A DNA stretch of 64,000 nt. It comes from an uncultured Parabacteroides sp. (GTDB lineage Bacteria; Bacteroidota; Bacteroidia; Bacteroidales; Tannerellaceae). Location of the stretch: the NCBI GenBank assembly GCA_944325335.1, contig CALUZR010000012.1:5860-69859 (forward strand). The letters are read 5' to 3'. The notes below the pieces were generated by a model, which saw only the letters and a list, made by a program, of their open reading frames with translations, made no database searches and was not told the origin of the DNA. Below are positions 4,300-27,014 of the stretch, in pieces. The first letter of the stretch is position 1, and the number at the start of each line of letters is the position of its first letter. The translations under genes were made by a program, and so were the position numbers.

Positions 4300-4310
4300 A
4301 CTTTCCTGTT

Positions 4311-6239
4311 TTATCGGGTTATCTTCATGACAAATCCGCCACCTGCCTGGAGCTCCTGACGGAATTCCCCGCCCCCGCGGACGTGGGTTGTTTTCATTTC
4401 CAGGCTCCGGCGTTCGCCTGGCTTATCACATGCGATTTCGGCCTTGTACCGGCCCTTTGGCAAGAAGTCCAACTGACATTGGAAGGTCCTCGCCTCGCTG
4501 CCATTCAATACGGAGAGATACCACACCTCCCCTTTGCGCCGGGCAATGGCCGCAATCTCCCCGATGGCGCTCTCCGGCAGTGCGACAGTTTCATCCCAAG
4601 TGACCGGCACCTCCTCAATCATGCGGCGGGCGGGACAGTTCAACATATCCTCCATGTCTGCTGCGAAGATCAACATGGGCGATGTGAACATGTAAATCGT
4701 AGCCAGTTGATGGGCAAATGTCACTTCCTTGGGGCAAAATGCACGGAAATTGAGTGGCGTGTAGTCTGCCGGGCCTGCCAGCCATCGTGTGAAGGGGAGT
4801 ACGGTATTGTGATAGGTCCACGCGGGCCCGGGAGCCCATGAATTTTCTGCGCCGACGCTCTCCAGTCCCCGGACGGCTTCCTTGGCCAATAGATTCGGAT
4901 ACGTGTACGTGTCGCCCGTGGGTTTGTTCACTCCATGGAATATGACCATGAGGTGCGCTTTCGCAGCGTCCCGGAGGATGTCCTCCATCAGTGTGACGGT
5001 AAACAAGTTCTCTGAATGGAAGAAGTCGATCTTGAGACCCTTTACCCCGATCTCGGCACACTTCTCCATAAAGTGGCGACGCTCCTCATCGTCTATGAGA
5101 CCGATGTCCGTACGATTGCCGGCGCGAGGGGAAGATGGACGCCATACCCAGATGTCGACACCCTTTCCTTTCGCATAGGAAACCAACTCAGACAGCAGGT
5201 CCCATTTCGTGCGGCCTTGGGCGTTGGGCTCCGTGTCTGGCCAGAGTTCCCATCCGTCATCCACCACTACCGTCTCTATGCCAAGCTCTGCACATCCATC
5301 GACATACTTCATGTGGTTCTGTACACTCAACCTTTCCACCCCGCCTTCTACCAGCCAGGTGAAGACAGCTCGTCCGGGCTTTATCCACTCTGTCTGCGCC
5401 CCGTGGGGGAAGAGTTTCGGGTCGGGCTGGTCCGCTACTTCCTGTATGATCGAGTTGTTCACCAGGTCGTTGAGGCTGTTTGCCAGCATAAGGACCCGCC
5501 AAGGTGTCACGATCCCCTCGTCTGTGCCACGCGGGGAAATGATCCAGGGAACGTCCCTGACGACCTGTTGCGCGTACTTCATGGGTGGCATGCCTGTGAG
5601 GGTACCCGTCTCGAGATGCCCTTTATTTTCCACATATCCATACTGTACGCGATTGTCGCCTACTCCAAAGAGCACGGCCCCGTGGTAGTGGAAGAGGTTC
5701 GCTTCCGTCAGGGCAGCGTAAATTCCATCCGGCGTGAGGAACGTGGCGGGTGGGGCGAGGAGCTCACCCTCCAGGGCCTCGACCTTCCGATCTTGATAGG
5801 CTTGCACCCACCCGTATTGGAAGGGACCACTCGCGTACCATGTCCTGGTTCCCTGTGGGAATTGGTAACTGGTTTCCTCGCCATATATGCATACCGGCTT
5901 GCCGTCTGTGGGGATATGATAGCGTAGCGCCATCCCGTCGTCGAATACTTTTGTTTCGATTTGGAAGGCACGGTCGTCCCGCTGCTTCACGGTATAAAGG
6001 ATATGGTCCGCACTGAGTGTGTCCGCCTCCAGGGCGACTACCTCTTTCCCATAGGGCCTGTTATCGATGTTAAGTCCCAAGGGAGAGGTCCCAATCATGT
6101 GGCGACCTTCAAAGTCCACCTTGTAGACGACTTCTTCTTGTGCGTTGACCCACACACGCATTTGTACATTCTCCGCCGCAGCTGTATAGGCTGCCAGCAA
6201 GCATGGCATCATTGCCAGCCAAGTGTTTCGTTTTCTCAT
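4311..6239 (-). CDS. Glycoside hydrolase family 97 (alpha-glucosidase/alpha-galactosidase type)
   Basis: 642-aa ORF with a signal peptide. Carries GH97-like blocks VVDDGW, GLKIDFF and FHGVNKPTGDTYTYPNLLAKEAVRGLE. Confidence 0.85.
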   Translation of the reverse strand: MRKRNTWLAMMPCLLAAYTAAAENVQMRVWVNAQEEVVYKVDFEGRHMIGTSPLGLNIDNRPYGKEVVALEADTLSADHILYTVKQRDDRAFQIETKVFDDGMALRYHIPTDGKPVCIYGEETSYQFPQGTRTWYASGPFQYGWVQAYQDRKVEALEGELLAPPATFLTPDGIYAALTEANLFHYHGAVLFGVGDNRVQYGYVENKGHLETGTLTGMPPMKYAQQVVRDVPWIISPRGTDEGIVTPWRVLMLANSLNDLVNNSIIQEVADQPDPKLFPHGAQTEWIKPGRAVFTWLVEGGVERLSVQNHMKYVDGCAELGIETVVVDDGWELWPDTEPNAQGRTKWDLLSELVSYAKGKGVDIWVWRPSSPRAGNRTDIGLIDDEERRHFMEKCAEIGVKGLKIDFFHSENLFTVTLMEDILRDAAKAHLMVIFHGVNKPTGDTYTYPNLLAKEAVRGLESVGAENSWAPGPAWTYHNTVLPFTRWLAGPADYTPLNFRAFCPKEVTFAHQLATIYMFTSPMLIFAADMEDMLNCPARRMIEEVPVTWDETVALPESAIGEIAAIARRKGEVWYLSVLNGSEARTFQCQLDFLPKGRYKAEIACDKPGERRSLEMKTTHVRGGGEFRQELQAGGGFVMKITR

Positions 6240-6250
6240 CTGCTTTGTAG

Positions 6251-6308
6251 TTATAAAAAAGTTCCCGATAGATTGTCTACAAAGGTACGCAGACTTCTCT
6301 ATCGGGAG
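6251..6308 (-). terminator. Stem-loop plus U-run after gene 6341..8746. The loop carries the putative GH97 -7 box.
   Basis: 9-10-bp stem (CCCGATAGA/TCTATCGGG) followed on the minus strand by AACTTTTTT. Confidence 0.5.
6281..6288 (-). promoter_or_regulatory. -7 box for the GH97 gene
   Basis: The plus strand reads CAAAGGTA (minus-strand TACCTTTG), 42 bp upstream of the ATG at 6239. Confidence 0.35.
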
Positions 6309-6340
6309 AATGGATTATCTTTTTATATTGTTGGATTATC

Positions 6341-8746
6341 TTACGGTAATTGGAGCTTCTCGGGCGTACCTTTCGTGATGAAGCGTACCTCTACCTCTGG
6401 CAAGTCCTCCCCGTAGGGTTCACACGAGAAAGAGATGGCTGACCCTCCGGCTGGCACATTCGCCACACCCATGGGAGAGACCTCTTTCAACACGTTGTAG
6501 TTCCTGTCTGTGACGTAGGCTTTCTCGCCCGGTGTGTAGAGCAGGTACTGCCCTGCCTTGATTTCACAGGGGAATTTGATGGTTCCCGTAGGCGTGCGGA
6601 ACGAGGGATTCCGGATTTCGCCCTCCCATTCCACACGGAGACGGATCATGTATTCCCCGCCATAGGGAGATTGTAGCGTCCAGTCCGCCCCACCGGGTTG
6701 GCCGGGCTGCATCTCTCCCAGATTACAACGATATACGTCCGAAATGTGTAACGGGTACAAGTGGAAGTTTCTTTCATCCACTTTTTCCAACCGCCACTCC
6801 GTTTGAGGGTCTCTAAGTTGCTCACGCTGTTCCGCGGTAAACACGTGCGCCTCCCGGAGCTGATCCCAATTGCGTATCGCGTCCAGGAGCTTGTCAATCT
6901 GTCCATGTCGGCGCAAGGTACGCATGTTGATGGTCATCGCATAACCTGCATCGAATCCCGCGGACTCGGAGAGGGCCCATTCCAAATCTTCAAGTGTCGT
7001 ACACTCAAAACGACGGTCTGCCAGCCGGATTAAAAACCACCCGAGCATGCGCGGGAAGAGATTTCGCTCAAAGAAAGCCTGGTTTTTGATGCGGTTGGCT
7101 ACCTGGCCGACCCGCATCGCAGCCCCCCACGGCTCGCCCCAGTTCATGCGGGTATGTACGTGCCACAGGTAGTGGCTAAGGCGGCTGGCATCATTTAATA
7201 CGTTGTGATTGACCTGGTCGTAGAATCGGGTGACGAACCGCGCCGTCGCATAGTCGTCTTGCCCCGTGTACATGCATCCCTCAAGTCCATCGAATGAAAT
7301 TTGTGCCAACCCGGTCTTATTGTAAATCTCCCCCAGCCGGTCGGCCATTTCATCTTGCAAAGAAAGGTCTGGGAACAAGGTGCGGTAGGGATAATCCCAT
7401 AATTTATAGCATACCTCGCCAGCGGGATGGGCTGCAGCCTTCGTCCCAAACGCCCCACGCACGCAGTTGCGCAATACCAGCCAATCGCCTTCCTCCTCGT
7501 GCGTGCCATACGTAATCAATTCGTCCCCGATTTGGAGCATGTTCAGTGTCAAAGGTACCTCGAAGAGTTCCGACTTCCGCACGCGTAGCTCAGTCTGGCT
7601 GGCATCCAAGGCGCCCTCCACTTGTACCTGTCCCTGCTTCAGGAGATGTTTGGAAGGTACGGGGGTGACATAGGCGTCGTTCGTGGTAATAAAGTTGGTC
7701 AGCGTATGCACGCCCATCTTGATACCTCGTTTGGCCGCCTTCTCGACCATGAGGCGCACGCCCTCGTCGCCCTTGACGGTGAACGCGCTATCCCATTGGA
7801 AGTGCCCCCAGTCCCGGAAAGGCCCGGAATGATATAAATAGCGGAACCCAGCCCGCTCGGCCTTCTCCAGCGCAAAGTCGAGGTCGTCTTCCGAGAAATT
7901 ACTGATCAAATAAGAGCTCATGGCCTTTTGCGAGGTCTTTCCCCACTCTCCCTCGAAGAGGGGATGCGGCAAACCCTGTTCCACTTCGATCGCACCAATC
8001 CGCGAGAGCGCCTCGCTCGCCAGGCAACCGAACAGTGCCACCTTGGCCCCTTCCATATCTCCATCCTTCCCCTCCACGGGCAAGACAAGCGAACCTTTTA
8101 CCTGTTGCACCGTCCTGTACTCCTGGCGCGTCCGGTTGCGCACAGCGAACTGGAACCTCGTACCCCCGTCGATTTCCGTGGCAGCCAGACGGTATGCCGG
8201 GACCGAGCCGACCGATAATTCCGCCGGGGCGCCTTCCGCGGGATCGTGGGCGCTTACCACTTCAATATATTCCTCTGGCACGCCCGCGGTAGTCTTGATA
8301 TTCAAGGCTTGAACCCCGAACGCCATGCCTTGGCCCTGTGCTACGCCTACGACGTCGCCCACCACGTCATGGATGGAGACCGAGAGAGGTCCGAAGAGCA
8401 ACGCATCGTAGCCATCGGGTACTTTCACCACTTCAAGCGTCACACAGTGCTGCGACTCCTCATATTTCAGTTGCACCTGCTGCCGGTCGGGCATGAGGAG
8501 TTTGATTTTATTTCCAGAGGTTACCAGCTCCGTGGGATGCAATAACTTCCCCTCATCACAGGCCGTGACGAGCGGAGACGCTCCCTCTTTCAAAATCTCT
8601 TTCCCCTCCACCTGTATGGACGCATAATATCCCTTTTCATCCAGTGTAATCACCGTGTTTGCCGTCTTCAGGACCAAATCCTTAGCCCCACCCGACGCCG
8701 CGAAGAGCACCAGCCCTGCCAGCGACATCCAAATCTTGTGTTTCAT
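6341..8746 (-). CDS. Uncharacterised large secreted protein, putative glycoside hydrolase (paralog family)
   Basis: 801-aa ORF with a signal peptide. Alignable along most of its length with 10395..12866 and with the partial gene at 1..2195. Confidence 0.85.
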   Translation of the reverse strand: MKHKIWMSLAGLVLFAASGGAKDLVLKTANTVITLDEKGYYASIQVEGKEILKEGASPLVTACDEGKLLHPTELVTSGNKIKLLMPDRQQVQLKYEESQHCVTLEVVKVPDGYDALLFGPLSVSIHDVVGDVVGVAQGQGMAFGVQALNIKTTAGVPEEYIEVVSAHDPAEGAPAELSVGSVPAYRLAATEIDGGTRFQFAVRNRTRQEYRTVQQVKGSLVLPVEGKDGDMEGAKVALFGCLASEALSRIGAIEVEQGLPHPLFEGEWGKTSQKAMSSYLISNFSEDDLDFALEKAERAGFRYLYHSGPFRDWGHFQWDSAFTVKGDEGVRLMVEKAAKRGIKMGVHTLTNFITTNDAYVTPVPSKHLLKQGQVQVEGALDASQTELRVRKSELFEVPLTLNMLQIGDELITYGTHEEEGDWLVLRNCVRGAFGTKAAAHPAGEVCYKLWDYPYRTLFPDLSLQDEMADRLGEIYNKTGLAQISFDGLEGCMYTGQDDYATARFVTRFYDQVNHNVLNDASRLSHYLWHVHTRMNWGEPWGAAMRVGQVANRIKNQAFFERNLFPRMLGWFLIRLADRRFECTTLEDLEWALSESAGFDAGYAMTINMRTLRRHGQIDKLLDAIRNWDQLREAHVFTAEQREQLRDPQTEWRLEKVDERNFHLYPLHISDVYRCNLGEMQPGQPGGADWTLQSPYGGEYMIRLRVEWEGEIRNPSFRTPTGTIKFPCEIKAGQYLLYTPGEKAYVTDRNYNVLKEVSPMGVANVPAGGSAISFSCEPYGEDLPEVEVRFITKGTPEKLQLP

Positions 8747-8813
8747 ATCCGTTAAATCGTTTTTATAAGTTAGTTTCTACCTTTTCTGCTTCTCATTTTC
8801 CTTTCCATTCCCT

Positions 8814-8864
8814 AAAAAAGAAGCACCTGCCCTTCCTTTTTCCATTGCAAAGGACAGATGCTTC
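8814..8864 (-). terminator. Rho-independent terminator after the DUF4469-type gene
   Basis: On the minus strand, GAAGCATCTGTCCTT..loop..AAGGGCAGGTGCTTC is followed by TTTTTT. Confidence 0.7.
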
Positions 8865-8891
8865 CCATTTCCCCTTCCTCATCCAACAGGT

Positions 8892-10016
8892 TTATACCAA
8901 TTTGATGATTTTGGCATATTCCAGCGACAAGGGTTTCCCCTCGTGGTACGTTTCGATTCGTATTTTATAATTACCTTCCGCAAAATCGCGAATCATGATG
9001 AATTCACACCCCTTGTTAGACCTCGCCAGGATGTCTTCAGCCGGTACTACTTCCTCGATACTCGAGTTTTCAGCTATTACCACAATTTTACCCGGACCAT
9101 CACCCTTCTCGTTCACGAGTTCAAAGCCTCCAGTCCATTCCATCAGCGTCTCCTTGCCCCGTGTGATGCCCGTAGCATCATAGGGATCCTTCACTTTGGA
9201 ATAGACGGCTGTGATTTCTAGCTTGGCAGGCTCCTCGGGCGTACTTGGGGTCTCCGTTGTCTCCGTCTTAGTGCCCTGTCCACGCCGCGTGAGCTTATCG
9301 TTCACCTCGACAATCAGCGCGTTAATTTTGTCGATAATCCCACCCAACACGGTACGTGTTTCTTCATCTTTTTGGACCATCTCGTTGGCTTGGTACATCA
9401 CATTAATTGCGCTCACCAGCTCCAGGAAGGCTTCATCGACGTCCTGACGAATCTTTTGCATATTCGTTTGAACTTTACGACCATGTTTTTCCGACGAGCG
9501 GGCTTTGTAGGTCGTATTGAAGTCCGTATTCGCCTCCTCGAGAAGTTCCACGGCATAATCCAATTCCAATACCGTCACCGCGGCAGCATACTTTTCCAAC
9601 TTGAGGGTCTGCACCAGGTTGGTAATCTCTGCCGTAATCTCGGAATAGGACTTACTGTTCGCACGACGGTATGGTTTAATCGCATATTGCAACAAATCCG
9701 CCGCTTTGTACTTTTCCTCTTTCGGGCAGTACATGTAGGAATCGATAATACTCTTCAGGAACAAAAATAACCTGTTCCGCTTGTTGTTTTTGGTTGTAAT
9801 TTCCACCGTCGAGGCATACCCTTGGTTCTGTTTATACACCAGGTCTTCTTGCTCGAACATGCTCACGTATGCGGCATATTGCGTATCGAAATGATAGGTC
9901 TCCGCCACCTCTTGGGGCACATCTTCTATCACATCTTGGTTAAACTGGAAGTGTTCACCATTACGCAACAAACCGATTTGCGTAGCACACGTTAAAACTT
10001 TCTTTGTGTTTGTCAT
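8892..10016 (-). CDS. Hypothetical protein with a C-terminal DUF4469-type Ig-like module and a helical N-terminal domain of unknown function
   Basis: 374-aa ORF. Its C-terminus (FAEGNYKIRIETYHEGKP) aligns with the C-terminus of 46735..47487 (LAEGNYTLRIETYIGTNG). The N-terminal LRNGEHFQF region looks DUF6261-like (from memory, unverified). No signal peptide. Confidence 0.8.
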   Translation of the reverse strand: MTNTKKVLTCATQIGLLRNGEHFQFNQDVIEDVPQEVAETYHFDTQYAAYVSMFEQEDLVYKQNQGYASTVEITTKNNKRNRLFLFLKSIIDSYMYCPKEEKYKAADLLQYAIKPYRRANSKSYSEITAEITNLVQTLKLEKYAAAVTVLELDYAVELLEEANTDFNTTYKARSSEKHGRKVQTNMQKIRQDVDEAFLELVSAINVMYQANEMVQKDEETRTVLGGIIDKINALIVEVNDKLTRRGQGTKTETTETPSTPEEPAKLEITAVYSKVKDPYDATGITRGKETLMEWTGGFELVNEKGDGPGKIVVIAENSSIEEVVPAEDILARSNKGCEFIMIRDFAEGNYKIRIETYHEGKPLSLEYAKIIKLV

Positions 10017-10067
10017 TGTACCTATTTTAAAAATGAATAATAGTTATCTAAATACCTCTATTGATAT

Positions 10068-10298
10068 CCCACGCGTGTGGGACGCCTTCCAAGTCTCCCG
10101 GAAACCTTCCCGTTCCGTGTGTGATGCTTTCCAAGTCTCCCGGAAGCCTTCTCACACGTGTGTGACATTTTCCAAGTCTCCAGGAAACCTTCCCACACGT
10201 GTGGAATGCTTTCCAAGTCTCCCGGAAGCCTTCCCACGCGTGTGAGAGAGTTTCTAAGTCTACCGGAAACCGCCCCACGCGTGTGGGGGATTTTCCGG
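10068..10298. repeat. Tandem array, about 5.5 units of 41-42 bp, each with a CACGTG/CGCG-core dyad
   Basis: Units look like CCCAC(G/A)CGTGTGG-N-TTTCCAAGTCTCCCGGAA(A/G)CCTTC. Dyad centres lie near 10074, 10116 (degenerate), 10158, 10198, 10239 and 10280. Confidence 0.9.
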
Positions 10299-10335
10299 AT
10301 AGACCTGAGAGACTAATTTTTGGATGTTACGGGTA

Positions 10336-10343
10336 CAAATATA
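10336..10343 (-). promoter_or_regulatory. -7 box upstream of the 41-bp array and the DUF4469-type gene
   Basis: The plus strand reads CAAATATA (minus-strand TATATTTG). I saw no TAnnTTTG between the array and the ATG at 10016. Confidence 0.3.
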
Positions 10344-10394
10344 ATATTTTCATTTCAAAAATGCAAAAAATAGGCGATAATTATTTCCTTCTAC

Positions 10395-12866
10395 TTATTT
10401 TTTATTCATTTGTATCTTTTCCGGCTCACTAAGTGCCTTAAATTCGAACCGGATAGAAGGCGATTTGGCAGAAGAAAACGTACATTCTGCTATGACGTGA
10501 TTTTCACCCTTGCTCCATTGCGCTGTCTCAGGTACGTCGCACTGGGCAAATGGTTTCCAATACTCATCACAGGCAAAAAGATGCTTTCCGTCACAATAGA
10601 GTTTGTTTCCGGCTTTCAGTGTGGCCGGCAGGGTAAACTCCGTACCTCCTATTTGGAGCGTTGGGTTCTGGATGGTCGCATTCGGGTCTTCCCCCGCATC
10701 CACATAAGCATAAAATTGAACCGGTTGCTCCGCATACGGATTTTCGAAGTTGAATTTTCCCTGCAGCGGCTCTCCCGTCTGCACGGAGCGGTATTTAAAT
10801 ACATGATCTTCCTTCAATTTCACTTCATATAAATTCCAGGCACCCGTACCTGCTTTCTCCAGATGAAATTCGCGCTTAGGGTCTTTCATTTTCTCTCGCT
10901 GCGCGGATGTGAGGAGATCATTATTTCGGATGTATTGCCACTCTCGTATCGCCTCGAACAGTTCACTCTTAAATCCGTTCCTCTCGATACTTTCGTCGAC
11001 CCTTAAAAGGTAACCGGCGTCGAACCCGGCACTGCGTGCCTGGATCCATTCGATATCCTCAGGTCTATACGTTTGCTCGAGCTTAAACCAGCCCAACATA
11101 CCCGGCATCAGGTTGCGCTCGAAGTAACGCTGGTTCTCCAGACGGTAATTCACTTGGCTATCGCGAAGATTATCGTACCAAGGTTCCCCCCAATTCATGA
11201 ACGAGTAGATATGCCACCAATAATGGAAGGGCGACGAGCCGCAGGAGATGATTCCTTTATCCTTTAAACCTGCGTACCATTCCTGCAGGAACATAGAAGC
11301 GCCCATGACGCCATGCCCCGAGGGTGAGCCCCCATAATATCCATCGAAATCCATCAGCGCAATGCCGGTTTGGTTACAAACCTCCGCCAGACGCTTCGCA
11401 TAGGTGTATTGCAGCTCCAAGTTCGGAAAGAAACCGCTATAACAATTATTTACTGGTTTGTCAACCTGTTCCCCGGCTTCATGGGAAGCTGGTTTGGTGC
11501 CAAATTGCCCGCGCGTACATCCCACGAGCTTGTAGGGTTTCTCTTTCGTCACCGAACGGTACGCAATCAGTTCGTCGCCTATTCGTGCCGAATGGGTTTC
11601 TCCCAAATAGGTAAAATAGAAGTTATCGTCAATCTCGATTTCCGTGTCAGACGCGCTGATAGACTTCGAGAGCGTCGTACTGCCTGCATAGCAAAGGCTA
11701 TCGCTTGGGATGGGAGACACGTAAGGGTCGTGCGTAGAAGTGAACATCGTCAGGGTATGCACGCCGATCTGTTTTCCACGCGCGCGGGCTTTGTCAGTAA
11801 ACGCCTTAATCTCTTTCGCACCGCCTGGGAATCGTGAAGTGTGCAGGTCGAAGTGGCCCCAGCTCTTGAAGACATCCCCGATGTGAATCAAATCGAAATT
11901 GCAAGAATCTGCATAGTCCAGGGCGTGATCCAAGTCTCCGCTTTCATACAGCATATAGGCCGGGTTCACTTCCCGACGTGTTTTGATCCATTCTCCATCA
12001 ATCATGGGATGAGGCAAGCCTTCCGCCAGTTCGATTTTGCCTATCACATCCAACACCTCGTCTGAAGGCGTAGCAAAGAAGGCAATTGAGGAACCGATGA
12101 AATCCTGGTCGACTGCCGGGATGAATTGCTTGCGGCCATAGAGGTCTACAATTTTATCTTTTCGCCAATCCCGGGCGAAAAACTGGATGTCGCTCCCGTA
12201 TGGGCGGGCTACCGCGGCATTGCCACGTATCTGCCGGATGTATTCGGGGAGATCCCCTTCCCGATTGACATCAATATCCGTCACTTGGTGACCTATCTTG
12301 TCTTTCAGTTCATCTGGCACGCTTTGGCCGGGCAAAGGATTAATGTAAAATCCTCCCGTCGCGTCGTCTCCAAGGTGGGGGACTCCCTCGGTCGTGCTAA
12401 TTTCGAGCGGATGGACCCCAATGGCAAAGAGGGAATCCCTCACGACGCCCACCGTCTCGCCCACATATTGCGAGATGGTCGTAGAATAGGGTCCCCAGGC
12501 TATCGCTTCGATACTGTCGCGATGGCTCAGCGACTCGAGGCATAGGCGGATATATCCATCCTTCACCTCCTGTGTGACGACCGCTTCCGATTGGTTGGGG
12601 AACGTGAGCAGTAGCCGGTTCCCCTCCATTTCCAACCGGATAGGGTTGAGGTACCCCTTGCCATCATAAAGTGCCAACAGAGGCGAAAAATCCCGCTCCG
12701 GGATATAATTCTTTCCTGTACGATGGTCTATAATTTCACAAATAAAGCCTTCTTGGTTCAATTTGATATCCGCATATTGTGTGGAGAGCTCCGCCACATA
12801 GGATGGCGTGCACGACACGAGCCAGAGACCCATGCAAAGGCATCCTAAAAGGTTGTTTGTTTTCAT
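10395..12866 (-). CDS. Uncharacterised large lipoprotein, putative glycoside hydrolase (paralog family)
   Basis: 823-aa ORF with lipobox LVSC. Shares conserved blocks with 6341..8746: GLPHP.(F/I)(E/D)GEW, GVHTLT, FDG(L/Y), NWGEPW, FERNL(F/M)P.MLGWF. Confidence 0.85.
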   Translation of the reverse strand: MKTNNLLGCLCMGLWLVSCTPSYVAELSTQYADIKLNQEGFICEIIDHRTGKNYIPERDFSPLLALYDGKGYLNPIRLEMEGNRLLLTFPNQSEAVVTQEVKDGYIRLCLESLSHRDSIEAIAWGPYSTTISQYVGETVGVVRDSLFAIGVHPLEISTTEGVPHLGDDATGGFYINPLPGQSVPDELKDKIGHQVTDIDVNREGDLPEYIRQIRGNAAVARPYGSDIQFFARDWRKDKIVDLYGRKQFIPAVDQDFIGSSIAFFATPSDEVLDVIGKIELAEGLPHPMIDGEWIKTRREVNPAYMLYESGDLDHALDYADSCNFDLIHIGDVFKSWGHFDLHTSRFPGGAKEIKAFTDKARARGKQIGVHTLTMFTSTHDPYVSPIPSDSLCYAGSTTLSKSISASDTEIEIDDNFYFTYLGETHSARIGDELIAYRSVTKEKPYKLVGCTRGQFGTKPASHEAGEQVDKPVNNCYSGFFPNLELQYTYAKRLAEVCNQTGIALMDFDGYYGGSPSGHGVMGASMFLQEWYAGLKDKGIISCGSSPFHYWWHIYSFMNWGEPWYDNLRDSQVNYRLENQRYFERNLMPGMLGWFKLEQTYRPEDIEWIQARSAGFDAGYLLRVDESIERNGFKSELFEAIREWQYIRNNDLLTSAQREKMKDPKREFHLEKAGTGAWNLYEVKLKEDHVFKYRSVQTGEPLQGKFNFENPYAEQPVQFYAYVDAGEDPNATIQNPTLQIGGTEFTLPATLKAGNKLYCDGKHLFACDEYWKPFAQCDVPETAQWSKGENHVIAECTFSSAKSPSIRFEFKALSEPEKIQMNKK

Positions 12867-12954
12867 TTGAACTATTTTTTTATTATTTGATTAAGTCGTT
12901 ATTGAGAGGGCGGAGTTCCCCTGTCTGCTGGAAGAACTCCGCTTGCCTATTTGA

Positions 12955-14679
12955 TTATTCCAGGGCCGGATTGAAGGAGCCGCCCCAATCCACATTCTGT
13001 TCCAAGTTTGCATTTTGCTCTATCGAGCTCTGTTTGATAGGGAAGAAGTAATATGTATCAGGTACATGCATCTCCGTTTCGCCAGTCGTATAAACTTCTT
13101 GCACTGTATAGGTGAAATCTTCGGGTAAAAGTTCATACCGATTGGCTGCCTCTTGCACGTCAGACGTAATTTCTCCCTTGTATTCTCCCAAAATACCATA
13201 TTTATGCATTCCATCCAACACATAGAGCATCCGATTGCGTCGGAGATCCCAAAAACGTTGCCCTTCGAAGGCAAACTCGATACGCTTCTCATCTAAAAGA
13301 GCCTGGCGCATCTCGTCGGGAGTCAGGCCAGCTTCCAGGCCGTACATGTTGTCCTCGCCCGGTTCGATTCCTGCTCTCTGGCGGATTTGCTTTAGTACAT
13401 CGTAACCAATTTCCGTGTTCCCTTTCGCACAGGCAATCTCGGCGTAATTAAACATCACTTCCGCAAAGCGAATCTCCAGCCAATCGTAGCTATTGTTGGT
13501 TACTTCGGCTCTTGGATTGCTTTCCATGATGCCTTTGCGAGGGAAGAACCCGGTACGATTGTATGTCGTGGTGATATAGAACTCATCATCCACACGGGCA
13601 ATGTTATGCACGGTGTATTGACGACGTCCGGCAATGGCACTCAGTTCGAAAACGGCGCCGTTCCACACTTGGGATGCCTCGAAACGCGGGTCACGGTTCA
13701 TCCAATAGGTTTGGAGATCGTATGGATACTTCTCCGACTCGCCGATACGCTTTCCGTCCTTCATGGGATAGGCCTCGATGAGGTCCCAGATAGCTTGGTC
13801 TCCCCCGGTATTGTCCTTCGACTCCGAGAGAGGGCGACACATTTGCTCATTACGTCCGTCTTTCTTGTTGTTACCATCATAAACTACCGCGAGAACTGCC
13901 TCTTTGTGGCGTTCGGTCTCAAATACATCCGTGTAATTGTCCACCAAGCCGTAGCCGCGGGATAAAAGCGTCTCATAAGCCAGTTTATTCACTTCGAAAG
14001 CCTCGTCTACATACTGGTTGTCGTATCCGCTCTTCGGATTGAACTGTGGACTTGCCTTATAAAGGAGCACTTTGGCTTTTAGAGCCAATGCGGCCGAGCC
14101 GTCAATCCTCCCATAGTCTGTCCCACTATATTTTTCCGGAAGGGAAGCTATCGCATTGTCCAAATCTTGGATGATGAGGTCAAAACATTCCGCCGACGTG
14201 TTGCGGTGGACATATAAATCATCCACACCTTCTTCCTGCACGTTTGTGATATAAGGTATTCCTCCATGATAAATCAATGCTTTGAAATAGTGATAGGCAC
14301 GTAGGAAGAGTGCTTCTCCCCGCATTTCATTTTTAACTTCTTCTGTCAGGTCACCAGTTTCCAAGCCTTCCAGCATGACATTGATTTTGTAAATGGTCTC
14401 GTAAGGCCAATATTTGCAATTATCATTATTCGGTTGGACATAGTCGGATATTAAAATTCCACTTGTCTCATCGGCATATAAACCTCCGCAATTAATAGGC
14501 CAACCCGAGAAAGTTGAAGCGTAAATGTTCGTCAGGTAAGCTTCCGAAAGACTTTCGTCATTCCAAACGTCATCCGGACTATAATTGCTCATATCTTTAA
14601 TATCCAATACGTCCGAACAAGCTGTTATGCCACACAAAGCTGTAGCGAAACAAATATATTTAAACCAGTTTCTTTTCAT
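12955..14679 (-). CDS. susD: SusD/RagB-family nutrient-binding outer-membrane lipoprotein
   Basis: 574-aa ORF with lipobox GITAC. Lies immediately downstream of SusC. Typical SusD C-terminal blocks (R.E...EG.R..DL.R). Confidence 0.9.
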   Translation of the reverse strand: MKRNWFKYICFATALCGITACSDVLDIKDMSNYSPDDVWNDESLSEAYLTNIYASTFSGWPINCGGLYADETSGILISDYVQPNNDNCKYWPYETIYKINVMLEGLETGDLTEEVKNEMRGEALFLRAYHYFKALIYHGGIPYITNVQEEGVDDLYVHRNTSAECFDLIIQDLDNAIASLPEKYSGTDYGRIDGSAALALKAKVLLYKASPQFNPKSGYDNQYVDEAFEVNKLAYETLLSRGYGLVDNYTDVFETERHKEAVLAVVYDGNNKKDGRNEQMCRPLSESKDNTGGDQAIWDLIEAYPMKDGKRIGESEKYPYDLQTYWMNRDPRFEASQVWNGAVFELSAIAGRRQYTVHNIARVDDEFYITTTYNRTGFFPRKGIMESNPRAEVTNNSYDWLEIRFAEVMFNYAEIACAKGNTEIGYDVLKQIRQRAGIEPGEDNMYGLEAGLTPDEMRQALLDEKRIEFAFEGQRFWDLRRNRMLYVLDGMHKYGILGEYKGEITSDVQEAANRYELLPEDFTYTVQEVYTTGETEMHVPDTYYFFPIKQSSIEQNANLEQNVDWGGSFNPALE

Positions 14680-14690
14680 GTTACACTTTA

Positions 14691-17600
14691 TTAGAAGTTA
14701 ATATTCAAACCAACTGTAAAAGTACGCATGATTGGGTACGAATCCAACTTATCTTGTTCTGGATCCATCTCATCCATGCCGTCGATGCTAAAGAGATTCG
14801 TTCCATTTCCAAATACTTGCACCGAATTGACGCCCCAAGCCGAGTACCATTGCTTTGGCAACGTGTACGCGATGTTTAGATTCTTAAGTCGTAGATAGGC
14901 ACCATTGCGAATCCAGAAAGTAGAACCTGCGGCTCCATAATCAGCCGACCATTCGCCTGTGGCAGCCGGATATTTAGCATCTGGATTCTCGGGTGTCCAT
15001 ACGTCGCCTGTCCATAATTCAAAGTAGGGCCTGTCTTCCACTTGGAATACGCCGTCTCCATTATTTGTCTTAATCATCCGGTCGTATCCGCCCACTCCTT
15101 GGAAGAGGGCTTCGATGCTTAAGCCTTTCCATTCCACACTAAAGCCAAAACCATAGTTGATACGCGGATCGGCACGGCGTGATAGATAATCCCAGTCGTT
15201 CGCATCGACTTTTCCATCCGGTCCTTCTGATTCATTTTCCCCGCGGATATCTTTATAGAGCAATTGTCCTAACCGAGGTTCTTTCCCGAATTGCGTAAAA
15301 CCTTCGGGAAGTGCATCCAATTGTTCTTGCGTACGGATAATGCCTTCACAAATATAACCAGTCAAGTACCCATTGGGATGTCCTATACGACTTTTCCAGG
15401 CAGGAAGGTCCGTTGCTTCATCATATTTCACCCATTTATCCTTTACATAGCCTAAATTGGCATTGACAGAATAGTTGACTTCTCCGATATGGTTGCTATA
15501 TTGAAGCGATAATTCAAAACCATTCCAAGCTTGCTCTGCATAGTTTTCGGCAGCCTTACCTCTTCCATAAGTATCTGGAACCGATGCGACGCGTTGCTGC
15601 AATATGTCCGTTTTACGTTTGTGGAAGTAACTGAAGTCACCTACCAAGGTGTTATTGAAGAAACCAAAATCAAGTCCGGCATCATACAGTTTTAGCGTTG
15701 CCCAAGTCAGATAAGGATTGGGGGTGGAACCGACCGCAATACCGCTAAAATAGGTGTCGCCAAATAAATAACCGGTTGCACCTTGGAATTTATTTCTCCA
15801 TCCGAAGAGTGCTAAGTTCCCACTATCTACACTCATATCAGTATCGTCACCTGTCGTACCATACGAACCGCGTAATTTCAGGTTGCTTAACCAGTCGATT
15901 GATTTCATGAACTCTTCATTTGAAATACGCCATCCAAAAGATACAGAAGGGAAGAATCCCCAGCGATGTCCAGGACCAAATTTGGCATTGCCATCTTCAC
16001 GGAAAGAAAATTCGGCAATATAACGGTCGTCATAATTGTAATTAAAACGGCCTACCCAGGCAAGGCGTGCCATTTCTTCCTCGCTACCACCGAAATATTG
16101 ATGGATTACATCATCCGAAGCAACAAATATTTGGTCAATGGATGAAGTAAGCAAATCTTCAGCCGTTCCGCTTAAATATTTGGACTGAGACTCAGATATT
16201 TCGTAGGCAATCATACCCGAAATGTGGTGTTTACCAAAGGCACGATCATAATTCAACATCCAGTTGAACTGGTAAGATTGGTCCAGCCAAACATTTTCTT
16301 GGATATTTTCATACGCATGACCTAAATTATGCAGGTTGATTTGATTAGGATCTACAGGACCTGGAATAAATATGTTTTCAGTAGAAGCGCTTTGGAAAAT
16401 ATAGCTCCTATTGAATGTCGCAAAGCGTTTCCGGTTTTTATCCGATACATTATATTGACCAATTACGCTTGTACTTAAACCTTTTACGTATTTACTCAGA
16501 TCTAAATCCAAGCGTAAAATAGCTTCTATGTTACGAGCCTTTGTCTTTTCGTAATTATCTCCGAAGACCAATTCGCCAAAGTGAGATCCGCCGGTTACAA
16601 CTGGATAATCGGTCCTTGTATCGGAAGGATTCCCATTTTCGTCTACATACCACGGGCGAAGCTTTGAACCATTGAATGTAGTTCTATAGAAATCAGAAAG
16701 CGTCATACTTTCTGGGTCATAATCATAAGGCCAATAAAAACGTTTATAGTCACGTTCGTTTCCACTGACGTTGAAATTTACTTTAAACGCATCTGTGATT
16801 TTGGCCGTGATATCTGAACGGAAATTGTATCGATTGTAATTTGTGTTCTGGTAAGAACCTTCTTCTCCGTGATAACCTACCATCATATAATAGGTGATGC
16901 GATCGGTTCCTCCATTCACGCTTATGTTATGCTCCGTATTCCAAGGATTTTGCCAAATGATATCGTTCAGATTATATCCCTCCTTATCTCTAAAGTAGTC
17001 ATAATAATTATCGCCATAAGGAACTTGGAAATTGGGGTCAGGAGTAGCTAACATACTGTTTTTATAAGTAGCGACTCTATTTAAAAAAGTCAATTCATCG
17101 GTAGCTGTCCAATCTTGCAAATCGCGTGTTGGGCTGGCGGTTGTAAATGAACCTTTATATTGAAACATAGGTTTCTGGACTGTACCTTTCTTTGTCGTTA
17201 CCAAAACGACGCCGTTACCTGCTTTCGAACCATAAATAGAGGCGCTGGCTGCATCTTTTAAAATATTTATGCTCTCTACTTCATTGGGATCCAATGCATC
17301 GAAAGCTGTTTTGTCTCTAATAATACCATTAATGACGTACAACGGTTCTGCAAAACTACCACGGATACGGATAGATGAAGAAGCACCGGCAAATCCCGAA
17401 CTATTCGTGATTGTCACGCCAGGAGCACGTCCTGCCAAAGAATTAGACAAATTAGATACAGGTATATTTTCTAAATCAGATGTTTTAATAGCTGTAATAG
17501 CCCCCGTCAAATTAACCTTCTTCTGCGTTCCATATCCGACAACCACCACTTCTTCCAATTGCTTCGAGTCTTCCGACAGGGTGATGGCAAGGGTGCTCTC

Positions 17601-18137: not shown

Positions 18138-18256
18138 ACAACAAAGTTAATTTAAAGTTGTGCATCTAAAAACAAATTTCAATAGTAAAGACAAGCCCGG
18201 ATTCTTTTTGTACCTTGATTTCTTCATTTTTTTTCAAAAGATTCTTTCTTTTTTCT

Positions 18257-18264
18257 TACTTTTG
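18257..18264 (+). promoter_or_regulatory. Bacteroidetes-type -7 box (TAnnTTTG) for the ECF sigma gene
   Basis: TACTTTTG, 20 bp upstream of the ATG at 18284. Confidence 0.4.
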
Positions 18265-18283
18265 CCCTCGAGAAAGCAAGTTT

Positions 18284-18886: not shown

Positions 18887-18949
18887 ACTTACGCGGTGTT
18901 TAGGTACATTTTCTCAAATAAACTCTCTATGTATATATAAAGAAGAAAG

Positions 18950-19924: not shown

Positions 19925-19984
19925 CTTCGGAGGAAACTTCCTCTCATGCCGGAGGAAACTTTCTTACACAACGGGAATTTCTTC

Positions 19985-20098
19985 AAATATCGACGATGTT
20001 TGTATAAATATCGTCGATATTTTTGTATCTTTAGGCTAAAGATAAAGAAATATCGTCGATGCGTGAAGAAAAAATAGGCGGCGGGGCAAGTTTTCTCC
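19985..20098. repeat. Dispersed ~115-bp element, copy A (upstream of dnaE)
   Basis: Aligns without gaps to 31188-31300 over about 95 bp with about a dozen mismatches (manual alignment). Three ATCGnCGAT dyads are centred at 19993, 20014 and 20056. A 19-bp palindrome TATCTTTAGGCTAAAGATA lies at 20026-20044. Confidence 0.88.
20018..20025 (+). promoter_or_regulatory. -7 box inside repeat copy A, pointing at dnaE
   Basis: TATTTTTG. The dnaE ATG is about 150 bp downstream. Confidence 0.3.
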
Positions 20099-20173
20099 TT
20101 TAACATTCGAAATTTGCCCACCTTCGAAATATGTTGTACCTTTACCGACCGAAAAAATCAGGTTAAAGTAAAG

Positions 20174-23971: not shown

Positions 23972-23998
23972 AAGTTGGCTCCGCATCGCAAAAATTTG

Positions 23999-26774: not shown

Positions 26775-26867
26775 GGAATTTTTCAGAAAGGGAAACGGCT
26801 TTTTATCGAAAAATCTTCTTTTCGGGGCTTATTTTAATAGAAAATGGCTTCCATCTATGGGCAGAAA

Positions 26868-26990
26868 GGTTTCGGAACACTTCCGAAAGTCCCGCTGGCA
26901 TCAGCGACGGTTTCGGAACACTTCCGAAAGTTCCGCTGGGTCCAGCGACGGTTTCAGAACACTTCCGAAAGTTCCGCTGGCACCAACGAC
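26868..26990. repeat. Tandem array, 3 units of exactly 41 bp
   Basis: Units at 26868-26908, 26909-26949 and 26950-26990. Each contains TTTCGGAAcacTTCCGAAA (8-3-8 dyad) and a GCTGG..CAGC element. Confidence 0.92.
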
Positions 26991-27014
26991 ATTTTCTAAA
27001 ACCTTTAGAATGGC

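What the first reader, a model, noticed from the sequence alone, without database searches (positions are those of the whole stretch)
10068..10298. 5.5 x 41-42-bp dyad-containing tandem array in the leader/upstream region of the other DUF4469-type gene
Units combine a strong dyad (CCCACGCGTGTGGG, TCACACGTGTGTGA or TTCCCACACGTGTGGAA) with a TTCC..GGAA-type element. The period is 41-42 bp (4 helical turns). The only canonical minus-strand -7 box I see (10336-10343) lies distal to the array. The array may therefore be transcribed as a ~310-nt 5' leader with five or six short hairpins, or it may act as an operator array. This is the second DUF4469-domain gene in the window and the second one preceded by a dyad-symmetric tandem array of unrelated sequence. 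From memory, Porphyromonas gingivalis carries a MITE-like minisatellite (BrickBuilt) made of roughly 41-bp tandem repeats with promoter activity. I cannot verify the details or any sequence relationship here.
Basis: partly seen in the sequence, partly recalled or inferred. Interest (0 to 1): 0.65.

Follow-up and report, generated by a model that had tools for sequence, protein, structure and literature searches.

The report
Hairpin repeat array leading a gene
A run of about five and a half 41-base repeats, each carrying two small palindromes, sits between a promoter and a gene of unknown function in a chicken-gut Bacteroidales bacterium; nine of eleven distant relatives of that gene carry an array of the same period, size and place but different sequence, so it is probably a conserved control element rather than junk DNA.

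Summary
Window 10067-10296 holds 5 good and 1 degenerate unit of 41 (once 42) nt. Each unit has two dyads, an 8-bp stem with a 3-nt loop and a 5-bp stem with a 4-nt loop. A full Bacteroidetes promoter, TTTG-N20-TATATTTG at 10336-10367 (-), lies just distal, so the array fills a predicted leader of about 314 nt of gene 8892-10016 (-). That gene has a DUF6261 helical domain and a weak DUF4469-like Ig domain.

The new result is that 9 of 11 distinct homologues (20-65% N-domain identity, unrelated neighbourhoods) carry a 41-43-nt array of 4.6-6.6 units in the same place. Their sequences are mostly unalignable. No other such array occurs in 75 kb of flanks. Three alignable arrays keep both stems through compensatory changes. 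One strain changed 10% of the array against 1.2% of the gene without changing copy number.

The array is not BrickBuilt, which has a 23-nt repeat. The 41-nt repeat in P. gingivalis belongs to MITE464/PgRS, whose other defining features are absent here.

Best reading (0.4): a transcribed chain of leader hairpins acting in cis. RNA versus DNA action is unresolved. The architecture resembles type III toxin-antitoxin loci, but the protein does not fit them.

The parts
10067..10296 (-). Tandem array of 41-nt units (one spacing of 42), with 5 good and 1 degenerate unit and an 82-nt higher-order alternation
   Evidence: TRF; the repeat finder; motif count; covariance-model hits
10233..10273 (-). Unit 1 (promoter-proximal full unit), with stem 1 weakened
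   Evidence: CM hit of 44.5 bits; unit rows
10192..10232 (-). Unit 2: AAGG-CTTCCGGG-AGA-CTTGGAAA-GCAT-TCCAC-ACGT-GTGGG (stem 1 8 bp/3-nt loop with two G.U pairs on the gene strand; stem 2 5 bp/4-nt loop)
   Evidence: CM hit of 51 bits; pair counts
10151..10191 (-). Unit 3
   Evidence: CM hit of 51.2 bits
10115..10150 (-). Unit 4, with a broken second dyad and one extra base (the 42-nt spacing). In strain X11 the dyad is intact and the unit is 41 nt
   Evidence: CM hit of 31.3 bits
10068..10108 (-). Unit 5 (gene-proximal)
   Evidence: CM hit of 54.1 bits
10274..10320 (-). Degenerate first (half) unit next to the predicted transcription start
   Evidence: CM hit of 14.7 bits, E 0.054; sequence
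10336..10367 (-). Bacteroidetes-type promoter: -33 TTTG (10364-10367), 20-nt spacer, -7 TATATTTG (10336-10343)
   Evidence: the DNA search (3 matches in 64 kb, about 1 expected); a TAnnTTTG box lies just 5' of the array or leader in 9 of the 12 upstream regions scanned
10017..10330 (-). Predicted 5' leader of about 314 nt. The start is inferred from the -7 box and is not mapped. The last 48 nt before the ATG are AT-rich and unstructured
   Evidence: no terminator-like site on the minus strand
8892..10016 (-). Gene of 374 aa: helical DUF6261 N-domain (variable across the family) plus a DUF4469-like Ig C-domain (nearly invariant). Both domains are acidic and there is no signal peptide
26866..26988 (+). 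Second array of the same unit family (41 nt x 3, plus a partial fourth unit to about 27013). It lies between the stop of an mltD-like gene and the relA/spoT promoter and is not next to a DUF6261 gene
   Evidence: TRF; sequence; alignment A2; pair counts; presence/absence variant

Best explanation
The array forms most of a transcribed leader of about 314 nt belonging to a DUF6261-DUF4469 gene. RNA polymerase starts a few bases downstream of the TATATTTG box and immediately transcribes five to six 41-nt units. Each unit folds into two short hairpins, 8 bp with a 3-nt loop and 5 bp with a 4-nt loop. The mRNA therefore begins with a chain of about ten hairpins followed by an unstructured AT-rich stretch of 48 nt and the ATG. 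I propose that this chain acts in cis on the mRNA. It could protect the 5' end, set translation or processing, or offer many equivalent sites to a structure-reading binder, and so set the level of the protein. Shown: the array is real; a strong promoter match lies distal to it; an array of the same period, size and position is a family-wide feature; both dyads are kept by compensatory changes; the array turns over fast without changing copy number. Inferred: that it is transcribed from that promoter, that the hairpins form in RNA, and what they do.
For: (1) Promoter. TTTG-N20-TATATTTG at 10336-10367 (-) is one of three full matches in 64 kb. There is no terminator-like site on the minus strand between the upstream gene, the array and the ATG. 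(2) Family-wide feature. Of 11 distinct homologues, 9 carry a 41-43-nt array (82 nt in L051) of 4.6-6.6 units ending 28-125 nt before the ATG: the window, L040, L043, L044, L047, L048, L049, L050 and L051. In 75 kb of their flanks there is no other array of 3 or more copies. In 6 of the 9 a TAnnTTTG box lies 10-35 nt 5' of the array. (3) Where the repeats have decayed (L041, L039/L042) the leader stays 280-320 nt long and rich in hairpins. L041 keeps one relic unit (23.7 bits). (4) Covariation. 17 units from three alignable arrays form standard pairs in 93% of cells, against 79% in shuffles (0/500) and at most 61% when the partner is slid. 5 of 13 pairs change on both sides. Pair 10:18 runs A-U (L040), G.U (window), G-C (strain X11 and the relA array), with the wobble on the gene strand. 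(5) Dynamics. Strains X6, X7 and X8 have 2 substitutions in the array. Strain X11 has 22 substitutions plus a 1-nt deletion in 230 nt, against 5 in 417 nt of coding sequence and none in 10297-10420. Several of these changes restore pairing. Copy number is the same in all contigs that span the array. (6) The local fold of the gene strand is more stable than that of the opposite strand in the window (-74.5 vs -56.4 kcal/mol) and in L040, L043, L044, L041, L039 and L042.
Against: There is no RNA evidence. The only 'metatranscriptome' holding the locus covers 20 kb evenly on genes of both strands and is probably DNA. The strand preference largely disappears once base composition is controlled: z-scores are -7.98 vs -7.90 for the whole leader, and local z-scores and G.U counts are mixed across 8 arrays. 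In 3 of 9 arrays (L047, L048, L049) the only promoter-like box (TAnnTTCG) lies between the array and the ATG, so those arrays may not be in the leader. The related array at 26866-26988 lies upstream of the relA promoter and appears to point the other way. The second dyad is a spacerless palindrome (CACGTG/CACGCGTG), and dyad centres fall every 20.5 bp, about two helical turns, which suits protein dimers on DNA. No Rfam family matches.
Confidence: 0.4

Rival explanations
1. The array works on DNA as an operator or architectural array. It offers phased dyads, one every 20.5 bp (two helical turns), each bound by a protein dimer. The resulting nucleoprotein block represses or tunes the adjacent promoter from either side. 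Candidate binders are the HU-HIG paralogues of the same genomes or the gene's own product.
For: A period of 41-42 bp is four helical turns, and dyad centres are spaced 20.5 bp in the window, L040, L047, L048, L050 and the relA array. The array lies downstream of the promoter in 6 loci and upstream of the only promoter-like box in 3, and it also occurs upstream of relA. DNA action tolerates this but RNA action does not. Several dyads are spacerless palindromes. L048 contains units in both orientations. The 22-nt array before the HU-HIG gene keeps its stem sequence GACACTT/AAGTGTC from chicken-gut to human-gut species, while the loop is found in both orientations, as expected of a sequence-specific dimer site. 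The array co-varies with the variable N-domain: L050 and L052 share both, while different alleles at the same site differ in both.
Against: Two unlike dyads per unit would need two specificities or a structure-reading protein. Stem sequences change freely by compensatory steps, including G.U intermediates that are mismatches in duplex DNA and persist in all window units. Orthologues without repeats keep a long hairpin-rich leader made of unrelated hairpins. The encoded protein is acidic in both domains (N pI about 5.3, C pI about 4.5) and has no known DNA-binding fold. In 4FMR the DUF4469 Ig domain occupies the HU DNA cleft (PMC5499826).
Confidence: 0.25
2. The locus is a type III-like RNA-protein module. 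The repeats are transcribed and cut to unit length, and each 41-nt RNA binds and neutralises or regulates the protein encoded just downstream. Each paralogue has its own private repeat.
For: The architecture matches ToxIN: 5.5 direct repeats (36 nt in ToxI; 31-62 nt and 1.9-5.6 copies across the families) lie directly upstream of the protein gene and downstream of a promoter placed at the start of the array (PMC3401426). Here the period and copy number are kept while the sequence diverges with the variable protein domain. The genes are scattered, multi-allelic at one site, and expanded in the way of conflict systems (PMC5499826 for the sister HU-HIG family).
Against: The protein has no sequence or fold similarity to ToxN, CptN, TenpN or AbiQ, and there is no PADLOC, PHROG or NCBIfam hit. 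It is twice as long as those toxins and acidic. No terminator lies between the array and the gene in the window. The units are self-contained hairpins rather than pseudoknot precursors. Three arrays lie upstream of the only promoter-like box.
Confidence: 0.08
3. The array is a selfish or neutral minisatellite. It is either a MITE-borne repeat of the P. gingivalis PgRS/BrickBuilt kind or a slippage product of a hairpin-prone region, and it merely travels with the gene.
For: P. gingivalis carries 41-, 23- and 22-nt tandem direct repeats, the 41-nt one inside MITE464/PgRS (PMC4596501, PMC2575886). The window has arrays of 41, 41, 23, 22 and 21 nt. A related array near relA is absent from one contig of run X11 (a 183-nt presence/absence difference), and similar units with other flanks occur in the metagenomes. 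The array shows rapid concerted turnover.
Against: The exact unit core is found nowhere else: only single chance hits among 185,579 species genomes, no extra contigs in the source metagenomes, and no other copy in the window apart from the diverged relA array. No terminal inverted repeats or conserved flanks are seen beyond one AT-rich 14-nt match. Copy number is fixed among strains and stays within 4.6-6.6 across the family, whereas BrickBuilt ranges from 1 to 22.8 and PgRS up to 14. Period and position are kept over complete sequence turnover. Dyads are kept by compensatory change. Enrichment is 9 of 11 family genes, against none in the 75 kb flanking them (roughly 65 other intergenic regions) and 1 (relA) in the window.
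Confidence: 0.12
4. The array is a recombination substrate. It marks the 5' edge of a variable cassette (array plus N-domain) that is exchanged between loci or alleles, with the conserved C-domain as the 3' anchor.
For: The same gene (N 98%, C 100% identical) lies in two different neighbourhoods (L050, L052). Different alleles occupy one chromosomal site: L049 vs L052 (N 31%, C 96%) and L047 vs L051 (N 21%, C 94%). C-domain DNA is shared by several contigs in one metagenome (depth spike at 8947-9017).
Against: Arrays of different family members are not alike, so they cannot pair with each other. No recombinase gene and no inverted-repeat boundaries were found. This idea would not explain the conserved period or the dyads.
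Confidence: 0.05

Closest known systems
MITE464 / MITEPgRS of Porphyromonas gingivalis (41-nt tandem 'Repeat C')
   Same: It is a Bacteroidales element, intergenic, with tandem direct repeats of 41 nt. P. gingivalis also has 23- and 22-nt tandem repeats, the same periods seen elsewhere in this window (PMC4596501, PMC2575886).
   Different: PgRS has ISPg1-type terminal inverted repeats, flanking Repeats A and B, about 20 near-identical copies per genome and up to 14 repeats with variable number. Here there are no such ends or flanks, the unit sequence is private to the locus, copy number is fixed, and the array is tied to one gene family.
BrickBuilt MITE of P. gingivalis
   Same: It is an intergenic minisatellite in a Bacteroidales genome, predicted to fold into stem-loops, lying near gene starts, with promoter activity reported for its flanks (PMC4596501).
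   Different: Its repeat is 23 nt, not 41. It has leader and tail segments with terminal inverted repeats, 19 copies per genome, 1-22.8 repeats, and expansion and contraction between strains. None of this holds here.
Type III toxin-antitoxin loci (ToxIN, CptIN, TenpIN)
   Same: The order is promoter, then a tandem array of 31-62-nt direct repeats (ToxI: 5.5 x 36 nt), then a protein gene. Repeats are private to each system. The loci are scattered and conflict-like (PMC3401426).
   Different: The protein here is not a ToxN-type endoribonuclease by sequence or fold, is about 374 aa and acidic. There is no terminator between array and gene in the window. The units are two stable hairpins. Some family members have the array upstream of the only promoter-like box.
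Iteron and operator arrays such as plasmid iterons and ParR-parC centromeres (from my own knowledge)
   Same: They are direct repeats spaced by whole helical turns next to the promoter of the gene whose product often binds them, and they co-evolve with the binding protein.
   Different: No DNA-binding fold is recognisable in the encoded protein. There are two unlike dyads per unit. The sequence drifts by compensatory change rather than being fixed by a recognition code.
REP/BIME elements of enterobacteria (from my own knowledge)
   Same: They are clusters of imperfect palindromes in intergenic, often intra-operon, positions, with effects on mRNA stability.
   Different: BIMEs alternate orientation, occur in hundreds of near-identical copies, and lie mostly 3' of genes. 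This array is head-to-tail, essentially single-locus, and sits in a 5' leader.

Membership tests
BrickBuilt MITE | Tandem direct repeat of 23 nt | tested here: not met
   The period is 41 (42) nt. BrickBuilt's repeat is 23 nt (PMC4596501).
BrickBuilt MITE | Conserved leader and tail segments ending in terminal inverted repeats like those of ISPg1 | tested here: not met
   Only a 14-nt AT-rich inverted match (10024-10037 / 10349-10362, 86%) flanks the array. Flanks are not shared with the orthologous loci L039-L042.
BrickBuilt MITE | Many dispersed copies per genome (about 19) | tested here: not met
   All close matches to the 17-mer core in the 64 kb lie in the array; the only other hit has 3 mismatches. 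No extra contigs map on the array in the source metagenomes. There are 38 single chance hits and no array in 185,579 species genomes.
BrickBuilt MITE | Repeat number expands and contracts between strains | tested here: not met
   Contigs of runs X1, X4, X6, X7 and X11 span the array with no 41-nt gain or loss.
MITE464 / MITEPgRS | Tandem 41-nt internal repeat | tested here: met
   The period is 41. This concerns the period only; sequence similarity to Repeat C was not testable.
MITE464 / MITEPgRS | ISPg1-type terminal inverted repeats and flanking Repeats A and B | tested here: not met
   No repeated flanks or inverted termini were found. The array abuts a promoter on one side and the AT-rich start region on the other.
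MITE464 / MITEPgRS | About 20 similar copies per genome | tested here: inconclusive
   Only one diverged relative (26866-26988) occurs in 64 kb. That one shows a 183-nt presence/absence variant and related units with other flanks in metagenomes. The whole genome was not available.
Type III toxin-antitoxin locus | Tandem array of direct repeats (31-62 nt, about 2-5.6 copies) directly upstream of the protein gene | tested here: met
   The array is 41 nt x about 5.5 and ends 50 nt before the ATG. Ranges are from PMC3401426.
Type III toxin-antitoxin locus | Short palindromic terminator between array and toxin gene | tested here: not met
   There is no terminator-like site on the minus strand in 8700-10700. 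Short palindromes without clear T-runs follow the arrays of L043 and L051.
Type III toxin-antitoxin locus | Toxin of the ToxN/CptN/TenpN/AbiQ endoribonuclease fold | tested here: not met
   Pfam gives only DUF6261. PADLOC, PHROGs and NCBIfam give nothing. The PDB fold search returns 4FMR's Ig domain and no ToxN-type chain among the 50 best matches listed. The PDB profile search gives nothing.
Type III toxin-antitoxin locus | Repeat RNA processed to unit length and bound by the protein | not testable with these tools
   No usable RNA data exist.
Structured 5' leader (cis-regulatory RNA) | Lies between the transcription start and the start codon | tested here: inconclusive
   The promoter motif is distal to the array here and in 5 other arrays. 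In 3 arrays the only box is proximal. No start site has been mapped.
Structured 5' leader (cis-regulatory RNA) | Secondary structure kept by covariation | tested here: met
   93% of cells are paired against 79% in shuffles, and 5 of 13 pairs are compensatory across three arrays. Caveats: only 3-4 independent lineages are represented, and dyad-symmetric DNA sites would show the same pattern.
Structured 5' leader (cis-regulatory RNA) | Strand-specific signal (G.U tolerated on the transcribed strand only) | tested here: inconclusive
   Two fixed G.U pairs lie on the gene strand in the window's stem 1. However, z-scores and G.U counts are mixed across 8 arrays.
Structured 5' leader (cis-regulatory RNA) | Member of a described RNA family | tested here: not met
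   The Rfam 15 scan at E up to 10 gave only spurious miRNA/snoRNA matches far below their gathering scores.
CRISPR array | Repeats separated by unique spacers | tested here: not met
   Units are contiguous with no spacers.

The most novel reading that the evidence does not exclude
Each DUF6261-DUF4469 gene carries its own private 41-nt repeat. This repeat is transcribed and engages a protein partner repeat by repeat. The partner could be the gene's own variable N-domain, as in type III toxin-antitoxin pairs, or an HU-HIG paralogue whose cleft the acidic DUF4469 domain mimics. On this reading, array plus variable domain form a matched, fast-evolving specificity module of a so far undescribed Bacteroidales conflict or regulatory system.
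Probability: 0.12. Interest if true: 0.85.

Novelty: new variant of a known kind. Interest (0 to 1): 0.62.

Why it matters
DUF6261 and DUF4469/HU-HIG proteins are expanded, fast-evolving families of gut Bacteroidales with no known function and, according to the literature, no conserved gene neighbours (PMC5499826). This work gives them a conserved neighbour after all, but a non-coding one: a repeat array whose period, length and place are kept while its sequence is replaced. That is a concrete experimental handle. The array can be deleted, swapped or counted in a reporter, and it points to a repeat-by-repeat interaction, as in type III toxin-antitoxin systems or iteron arrays. It also gives a simple rule for finding such loci in metagenomes (a PF19775 gene plus a 41-nt array upstream). 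It warns that gene callers put spurious ORFs on these arrays and that assemblies break there. Finally, it suggests that the long-noted 41-, 23- and 22-nt tandem repeats of P. gingivalis may belong to a wider Bacteroidales phenomenon.

Tried and rejected
(1) An exact-core scan of 185,579 species genomes with TTCCAAGTCTCCCGGAA gave 38 single hits and no array. About 70 hits are expected by chance for a 17-mer in 596 Gb on both strands. The unit is therefore not a dispersed repeat at this stringency, but this used the only genome scan.
(2) Protein-guided scans found no relative in metagenome contigs, viral contigs or PLSDB plasmids.
(3) Rfam gave nothing meaningful.
(4) RNA evidence failed. Only one 'metatranscriptome' (X9) holds the locus, as contigs, and it covers 20 kb evenly, so it is probably DNA. 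Low-depth runs break inside the array.
(5) Sense-versus-antisense folding and G.U counts as a test of RNA versus DNA gave mixed results once composition was controlled.
(6) Autoregulation by the encoded protein looked attractive because the N-domain co-varies with the array, but it is weakened by the protein's acidity and lack of any nucleic-acid-binding fold.
(7) An invertible promoter in the 'class B' loci: no flanking inverted repeats were found.
(8) A universal TTCC-N-GGAA motif is present in only 4 of 10 arrays; others are of the TTGCAA type.
(9) The equal 20.5-nt spacing of dyads is partly a geometric consequence of a palindromic unit repeated in tandem, so I do not count it as independent evidence for DNA phasing.
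(10) A coding role is rejected, because 41 is not a multiple of 3 and the overlapping ORFs are artefacts.
(11) CRISPR is rejected, because there are no spacers.
Full report
WHAT IS THERE. Window 10067-10296 is a head-to-tail array. Tandem Repeats Finder reports period 41 (5.1 copies, 80% matches) and a better-scoring period of 82 (2.7 copies). Gap-free registration gives spacings of 42, 41, 41 and 41 nt. The 17-nt core occurs five times in the array, against 0.16 matches expected in the whole window. Read on the minus (gene) strand, a typical unit is AAGG-CTTCCGGG-AGA-CTTGGAAA-GCAT-TCCAC-ACGT-GTGGG. That is two dyads: an 8-bp stem with a 3-nt loop and a 5-bp stem with a 4-nt loop. The period is not a multiple of three, so the small ORFs that overlap the array are artefacts.

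SURROUNDINGS. The array lies inside a polysaccharide utilisation locus, all on the minus strand:
- SusC-like gene, 14691-18137
- SusD-like gene, 12955-14679
- an 823-aa protein, 10395-12866
- the array
- a 374-aa gene, 8892-10016
- an 801-aa protein, 6341-8746
- GH97, 4311-6239
- a GH38/DUF5054-type protein, 2329-4299

The 374-aa protein scores DUF6261 (E 1.6e-31). Its last 115 residues hit DUF4469 only weakly (E 0.013, below the cut-off). However, 62 of 64 homologues have DUF4469 hits on record. An AlphaFold model (mean pLDDT 85.7) shows a ten-helix N-domain and a beta-sandwich C-domain, whose best PDB match is the Ig domain of 4FMR, the HU-HIG/DUF4469 structure.

Twenty-eight bases after the stop of the upstream gene, a full Bacteroidetes promoter begins: TTTG (10364-10367), 20 nt, TATATTTG (10336-10343). 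It is one of three such matches in the 64 kb. No terminator-like site lies on the minus strand anywhere between the upstream gene and the ATG. The predicted leader is therefore about 314 nt. It consists of the array plus a 48-nt AT-rich tail. The source is a chicken-gut metagenome organism.

THE MAIN NEW RESULT. I fetched the neighbourhoods of homologues covering 39-98% overall identity (20-65% in the N-domain) and ran TRF on their upstream regions. Of 11 distinct genes, 9 carry an array:

- window: 41 nt x 5.3
- L040: 41 x 5.6
- L043: 41 x 6.1
- L044: 41 x 6.6
- L047: 41 x 5.0
- L048: 43/42 x 5.4
- L049: 41 x 4.6
- L050: 41 x 6.5
- L051: 82 x 2.4, made of two alternating 41-nt halves

Every array ends 28-125 nt before the ATG. 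A twelfth locus (L052) starts inside such an array at a contig end. The unit sequences are mostly unalignable with one another. The genes sit in unrelated neighbourhoods: a PUL, next to carB, next to a peptidase M3 gene, and others. In the 75 kb of these loci there is no other array of three or more copies. The two genes without an array are close orthologues of the window gene. L039/L042 keep about two degenerate units. L041 keeps one relic unit that a covariance model still recognises (23.7 bits). Both keep a long (280-320 nt), hairpin-rich leader. Presence, period, copy number and position have thus outlived complete turnover of the sequence. With units diverged beyond recognition, indels should have shifted the period if length were free. 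That 8 of 9 arrays are exactly 41 or 82 nt is, by inference, a length constraint.

THE DYADS ARE SELECTED. Three arrays are alignable: the window (with its strain variants), L040, and a second array in the window at 26866-26988. On 17 units the two-stem structure pairs 93% of cells, against 79% in column shuffles (0 of 500 reach the observed value) and at most 61% when partners are slid. Five of 13 pairs change on both sides, for example C-G / U-A / G-C at pair 9:19, and A-U / U-A and C-G / G-C in stem 2. The caveat is that only three or four independent lineages are represented.

DYNAMICS. Runs X1 and X4 carry the window sequence exactly. Runs X6, X7 and X8 differ by 2 substitutions in the array. 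The strain in run X11 differs at 22 positions plus a 1-nt deletion within the 230-nt array. It differs at 5 positions in the 417 nt of coding sequence laid and at none in the 124 nt distal to the array. The deletion turns the odd 42-nt unit into 41 nt and, together with four adjacent substitutions, rebuilds its broken dyad. Several other changes turn mismatches or G.U into standard pairs. No contig that spans the array shows a gain or loss of a unit. This pattern is concerted evolution under constraint, not a free-running VNTR. One caveat is that these are Logan contigs, so mis-threading among units cannot be fully excluded.

RNA OR DNA? The points in favour of RNA are these:
- The promoter is distal to the array here and in five other arrays (L040, L043, L044, L050, L051), and the array begins at or just after the predicted start.
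- L047 has a decayed box (CTGTAAATTCT) that, by eye, matches L051's CTGTATCTTTG at the same place. This is my inference.
- Structure persists without repeats in L041 and L039.
- Pair 10:18 follows the series A-U, G.U, G-C, and two G.U pairs are fixed on the gene strand in all good window units.

The points against RNA are these:
- Whole-leader z-scores are the same on both strands (-7.98 and -7.90).
- Local z-scores and G.U counts over eight arrays are mixed.
- In L047, L048 and L049 the only promoter-like box (TAnnTTCG, sharing the context ATGCCTAnnTTyG with the boxes of L043 and L044) lies between the array and the ATG.
- The relA-side array lies upstream of relA's own -7 box (CAAATGTA on the plus strand, 26767-26774). 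By unit similarity to L040 (27/41 matches against 22/41, counted by hand) it points the other way.
- Dyad centres fall every 20.5 bp. This is partly a geometric consequence of repeating a palindromic unit.
- No RNA data could be used.

I therefore commit to the leader-hairpin reading at 0.4 and keep a DNA operator or architectural array at 0.25.

THE PROTEIN AND THE MODULE. Across the family the N-domain is 18-65% identical, while the C-domain is 70-100% identical (53-62% for L041). L050 and L052 encode the same protein (N 98%, C 100%) with the same unit in different neighbourhoods. L049 and L052 occupy the same chromosomal site with N-domains 31% identical and C-domains 96% identical, and L047 and L051 likewise (21% and 94%). 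The array and the N-domain therefore form a variable module next to a constant C-domain. C-domain DNA is shared by several contigs in one metagenome (depth spike at 8947-9017). Both domains are acidic (median pI 5.3 and 4.5). No defence, phage or NCBI family model matches, and neither does any PDB sequence. This evolutionary style matches what Burroughs et al. described for the sister HU-HIG family: lineage-specific expansion, rapid divergence, and no conserved operons (PMC5499826). That paper does not report upstream repeats in the passages I read.

COMPARISON WITH WHAT IS KNOWN. BrickBuilt is a MITE with a 23-nt repeat, leader and tail segments with inverted termini, 19 copies per genome, and 1-22.8 repeats that vary between strains (PMC4596501). 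All four features were tested here and none is met. Only the period is shared. [quoted passage not shown] The closest architectural analogue is the type III toxin-antitoxin locus: promoter, then 5.5 x 36-nt ToxI repeats, then a terminator, then toxN, with family ranges of 31-62 nt and 1.9-5.6 copies (PMC3401426). The array fits those ranges, but the protein is not ToxN-like, it is acidic, and no terminator is present. This is therefore a resemblance in layout, not membership.

SUPPORTING SIDE RESULT. The window's true HU-HIG+DUF4469 gene (46735-47487) is preceded by a 22-nt x 3.9 hairpin array (46594-46679). Among 80 human-gut loci of its homologues, 12 of 16 distinct upstream groups carry a 22-nt array of 2.7-4.3 units at -50 to -160. 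These arrays have the same stem, GACACTT/AAGTGTC, and a loop that appears in either orientation. One group has lost the array by a clean deletion. Hairpin arrays before genes of these two related families are thus a recurrent feature. In the HU-HIG case the array is sequence-conserved, whereas in the DUF6261 case only the structure and period are conserved.

VERDICT. The feature is real and non-random. It is not BrickBuilt, not a PgRS member and not a described RNA family. It is a conserved, fast-evolving, 41-nt-periodic hairpin array tied to DUF6261-DUF4469 genes. It most likely acts in cis on expression, and whether it acts at the RNA or the DNA level is still open.

Noticed in passing
window 26836-27018 (array 26866-26988, + strand): A second 41-nt x 3 array belongs to the same unit family and is closer to L040's units (27/41) than to the window's own DUF6261 array (16/41), by hand count. 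It lies between the stop of an mltD-like gene (27015-27017) and the relA/spoT promoter. One contig in run X11 joins 26835 to 27019, skipping 183 nt. The skipped piece is bounded by the near-repeat AGAA(A)ATGGCT and includes the mltD-like stop codon. Contigs with similar units but other flanks occur in the same metagenomes.
   Followed up: partly
window 46594-46679 and gene 46735-47487 (+); loci L053-L132: A 22-nt x 3.9 hairpin array (GACACTT-CTTAT-AAGTGTC) lies 55 nt before an HU-HIG+DUF4469 gene. In human-gut homologues, 12 of 16 upstream groups have the same 22-nt array with a conserved stem and a loop in either orientation. L088 lacks it through a clean deletion. No canonical TAnnTTTG lies upstream. 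A conserved ATGTTTnACTTAAA motif sits about 22 nt before the ATG.
   Followed up: partly
window 36964-37096 (+): A 23-nt x 5.5 (46-nt x 2.9) array lies between secDF and a znuA-like gene. Every unit carries TACCTTTA, one base off the Bacteroidetes -7 box TAnnTTTG. The period is the same as that of BrickBuilt.
   Followed up: no
window 46233-46328 (+): A loose 21-nt x 4.6 array (69% matches; consensus unit CAGGATGACGTAGGAGTAAAA) lies in the roughly 1-kb gap upstream of the HU-HIG gene.
   Followed up: no
window 8947-9017 (-), C-terminal domain of the DUF6261 gene: Metagenome depth rises about 8- to 10-fold in runs X1 and X4 (less in X6 and X9), and many short contigs with other flanks map here. 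The C-domain DNA is therefore shared by several paralogues or species. Protein P0020 has a C-domain 96% identical but an N-domain only 23% identical to the window protein.
   Followed up: partly
L050 vs L052; L049 vs L052; L047 vs L051: The same gene and array (N 98%, C 100%) occur in two different neighbourhoods. Very different alleles (N 21-31%, C 94-96%) with different arrays occupy the same chromosomal site in other samples. This looks like cassette replacement of the array plus N-domain.
   Followed up: partly
L048 2529-2594 and 2829-2894: The array of this homologue contains about two units in inverted orientation ahead of about six direct ones (66-nt inverted repeat, 83% complementary).
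   Followed up: no
L043 2543-2974, L044 2556-2753, L047 2612-2911; window 10006-10278: Gene callers placed ORFs of 65-143 aa with no Pfam hit on the arrays. Contigs also tend to end inside arrays (L052; runs X9, X10, X13, X14). Both are annotation and assembly artefacts caused by the repeats.
   Followed up: no
window 10395-12866 vs L039-L042: The gene just upstream of the array differs among orthologous PULs. It is an 823-aa protein with no family above threshold here, a GH95-like 769-aa protein in L039/L042, and SusD directly in L040/L041. The array and promoter therefore sit at a synteny breakpoint inside the PUL.
   Followed up: no
window 4001-24000, run X9: A run labelled metatranscriptomic covers 20 kb, including genes on both strands, at an even depth of 5-15x. 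It therefore behaves like DNA and should not be used as expression evidence.
   Followed up: yes
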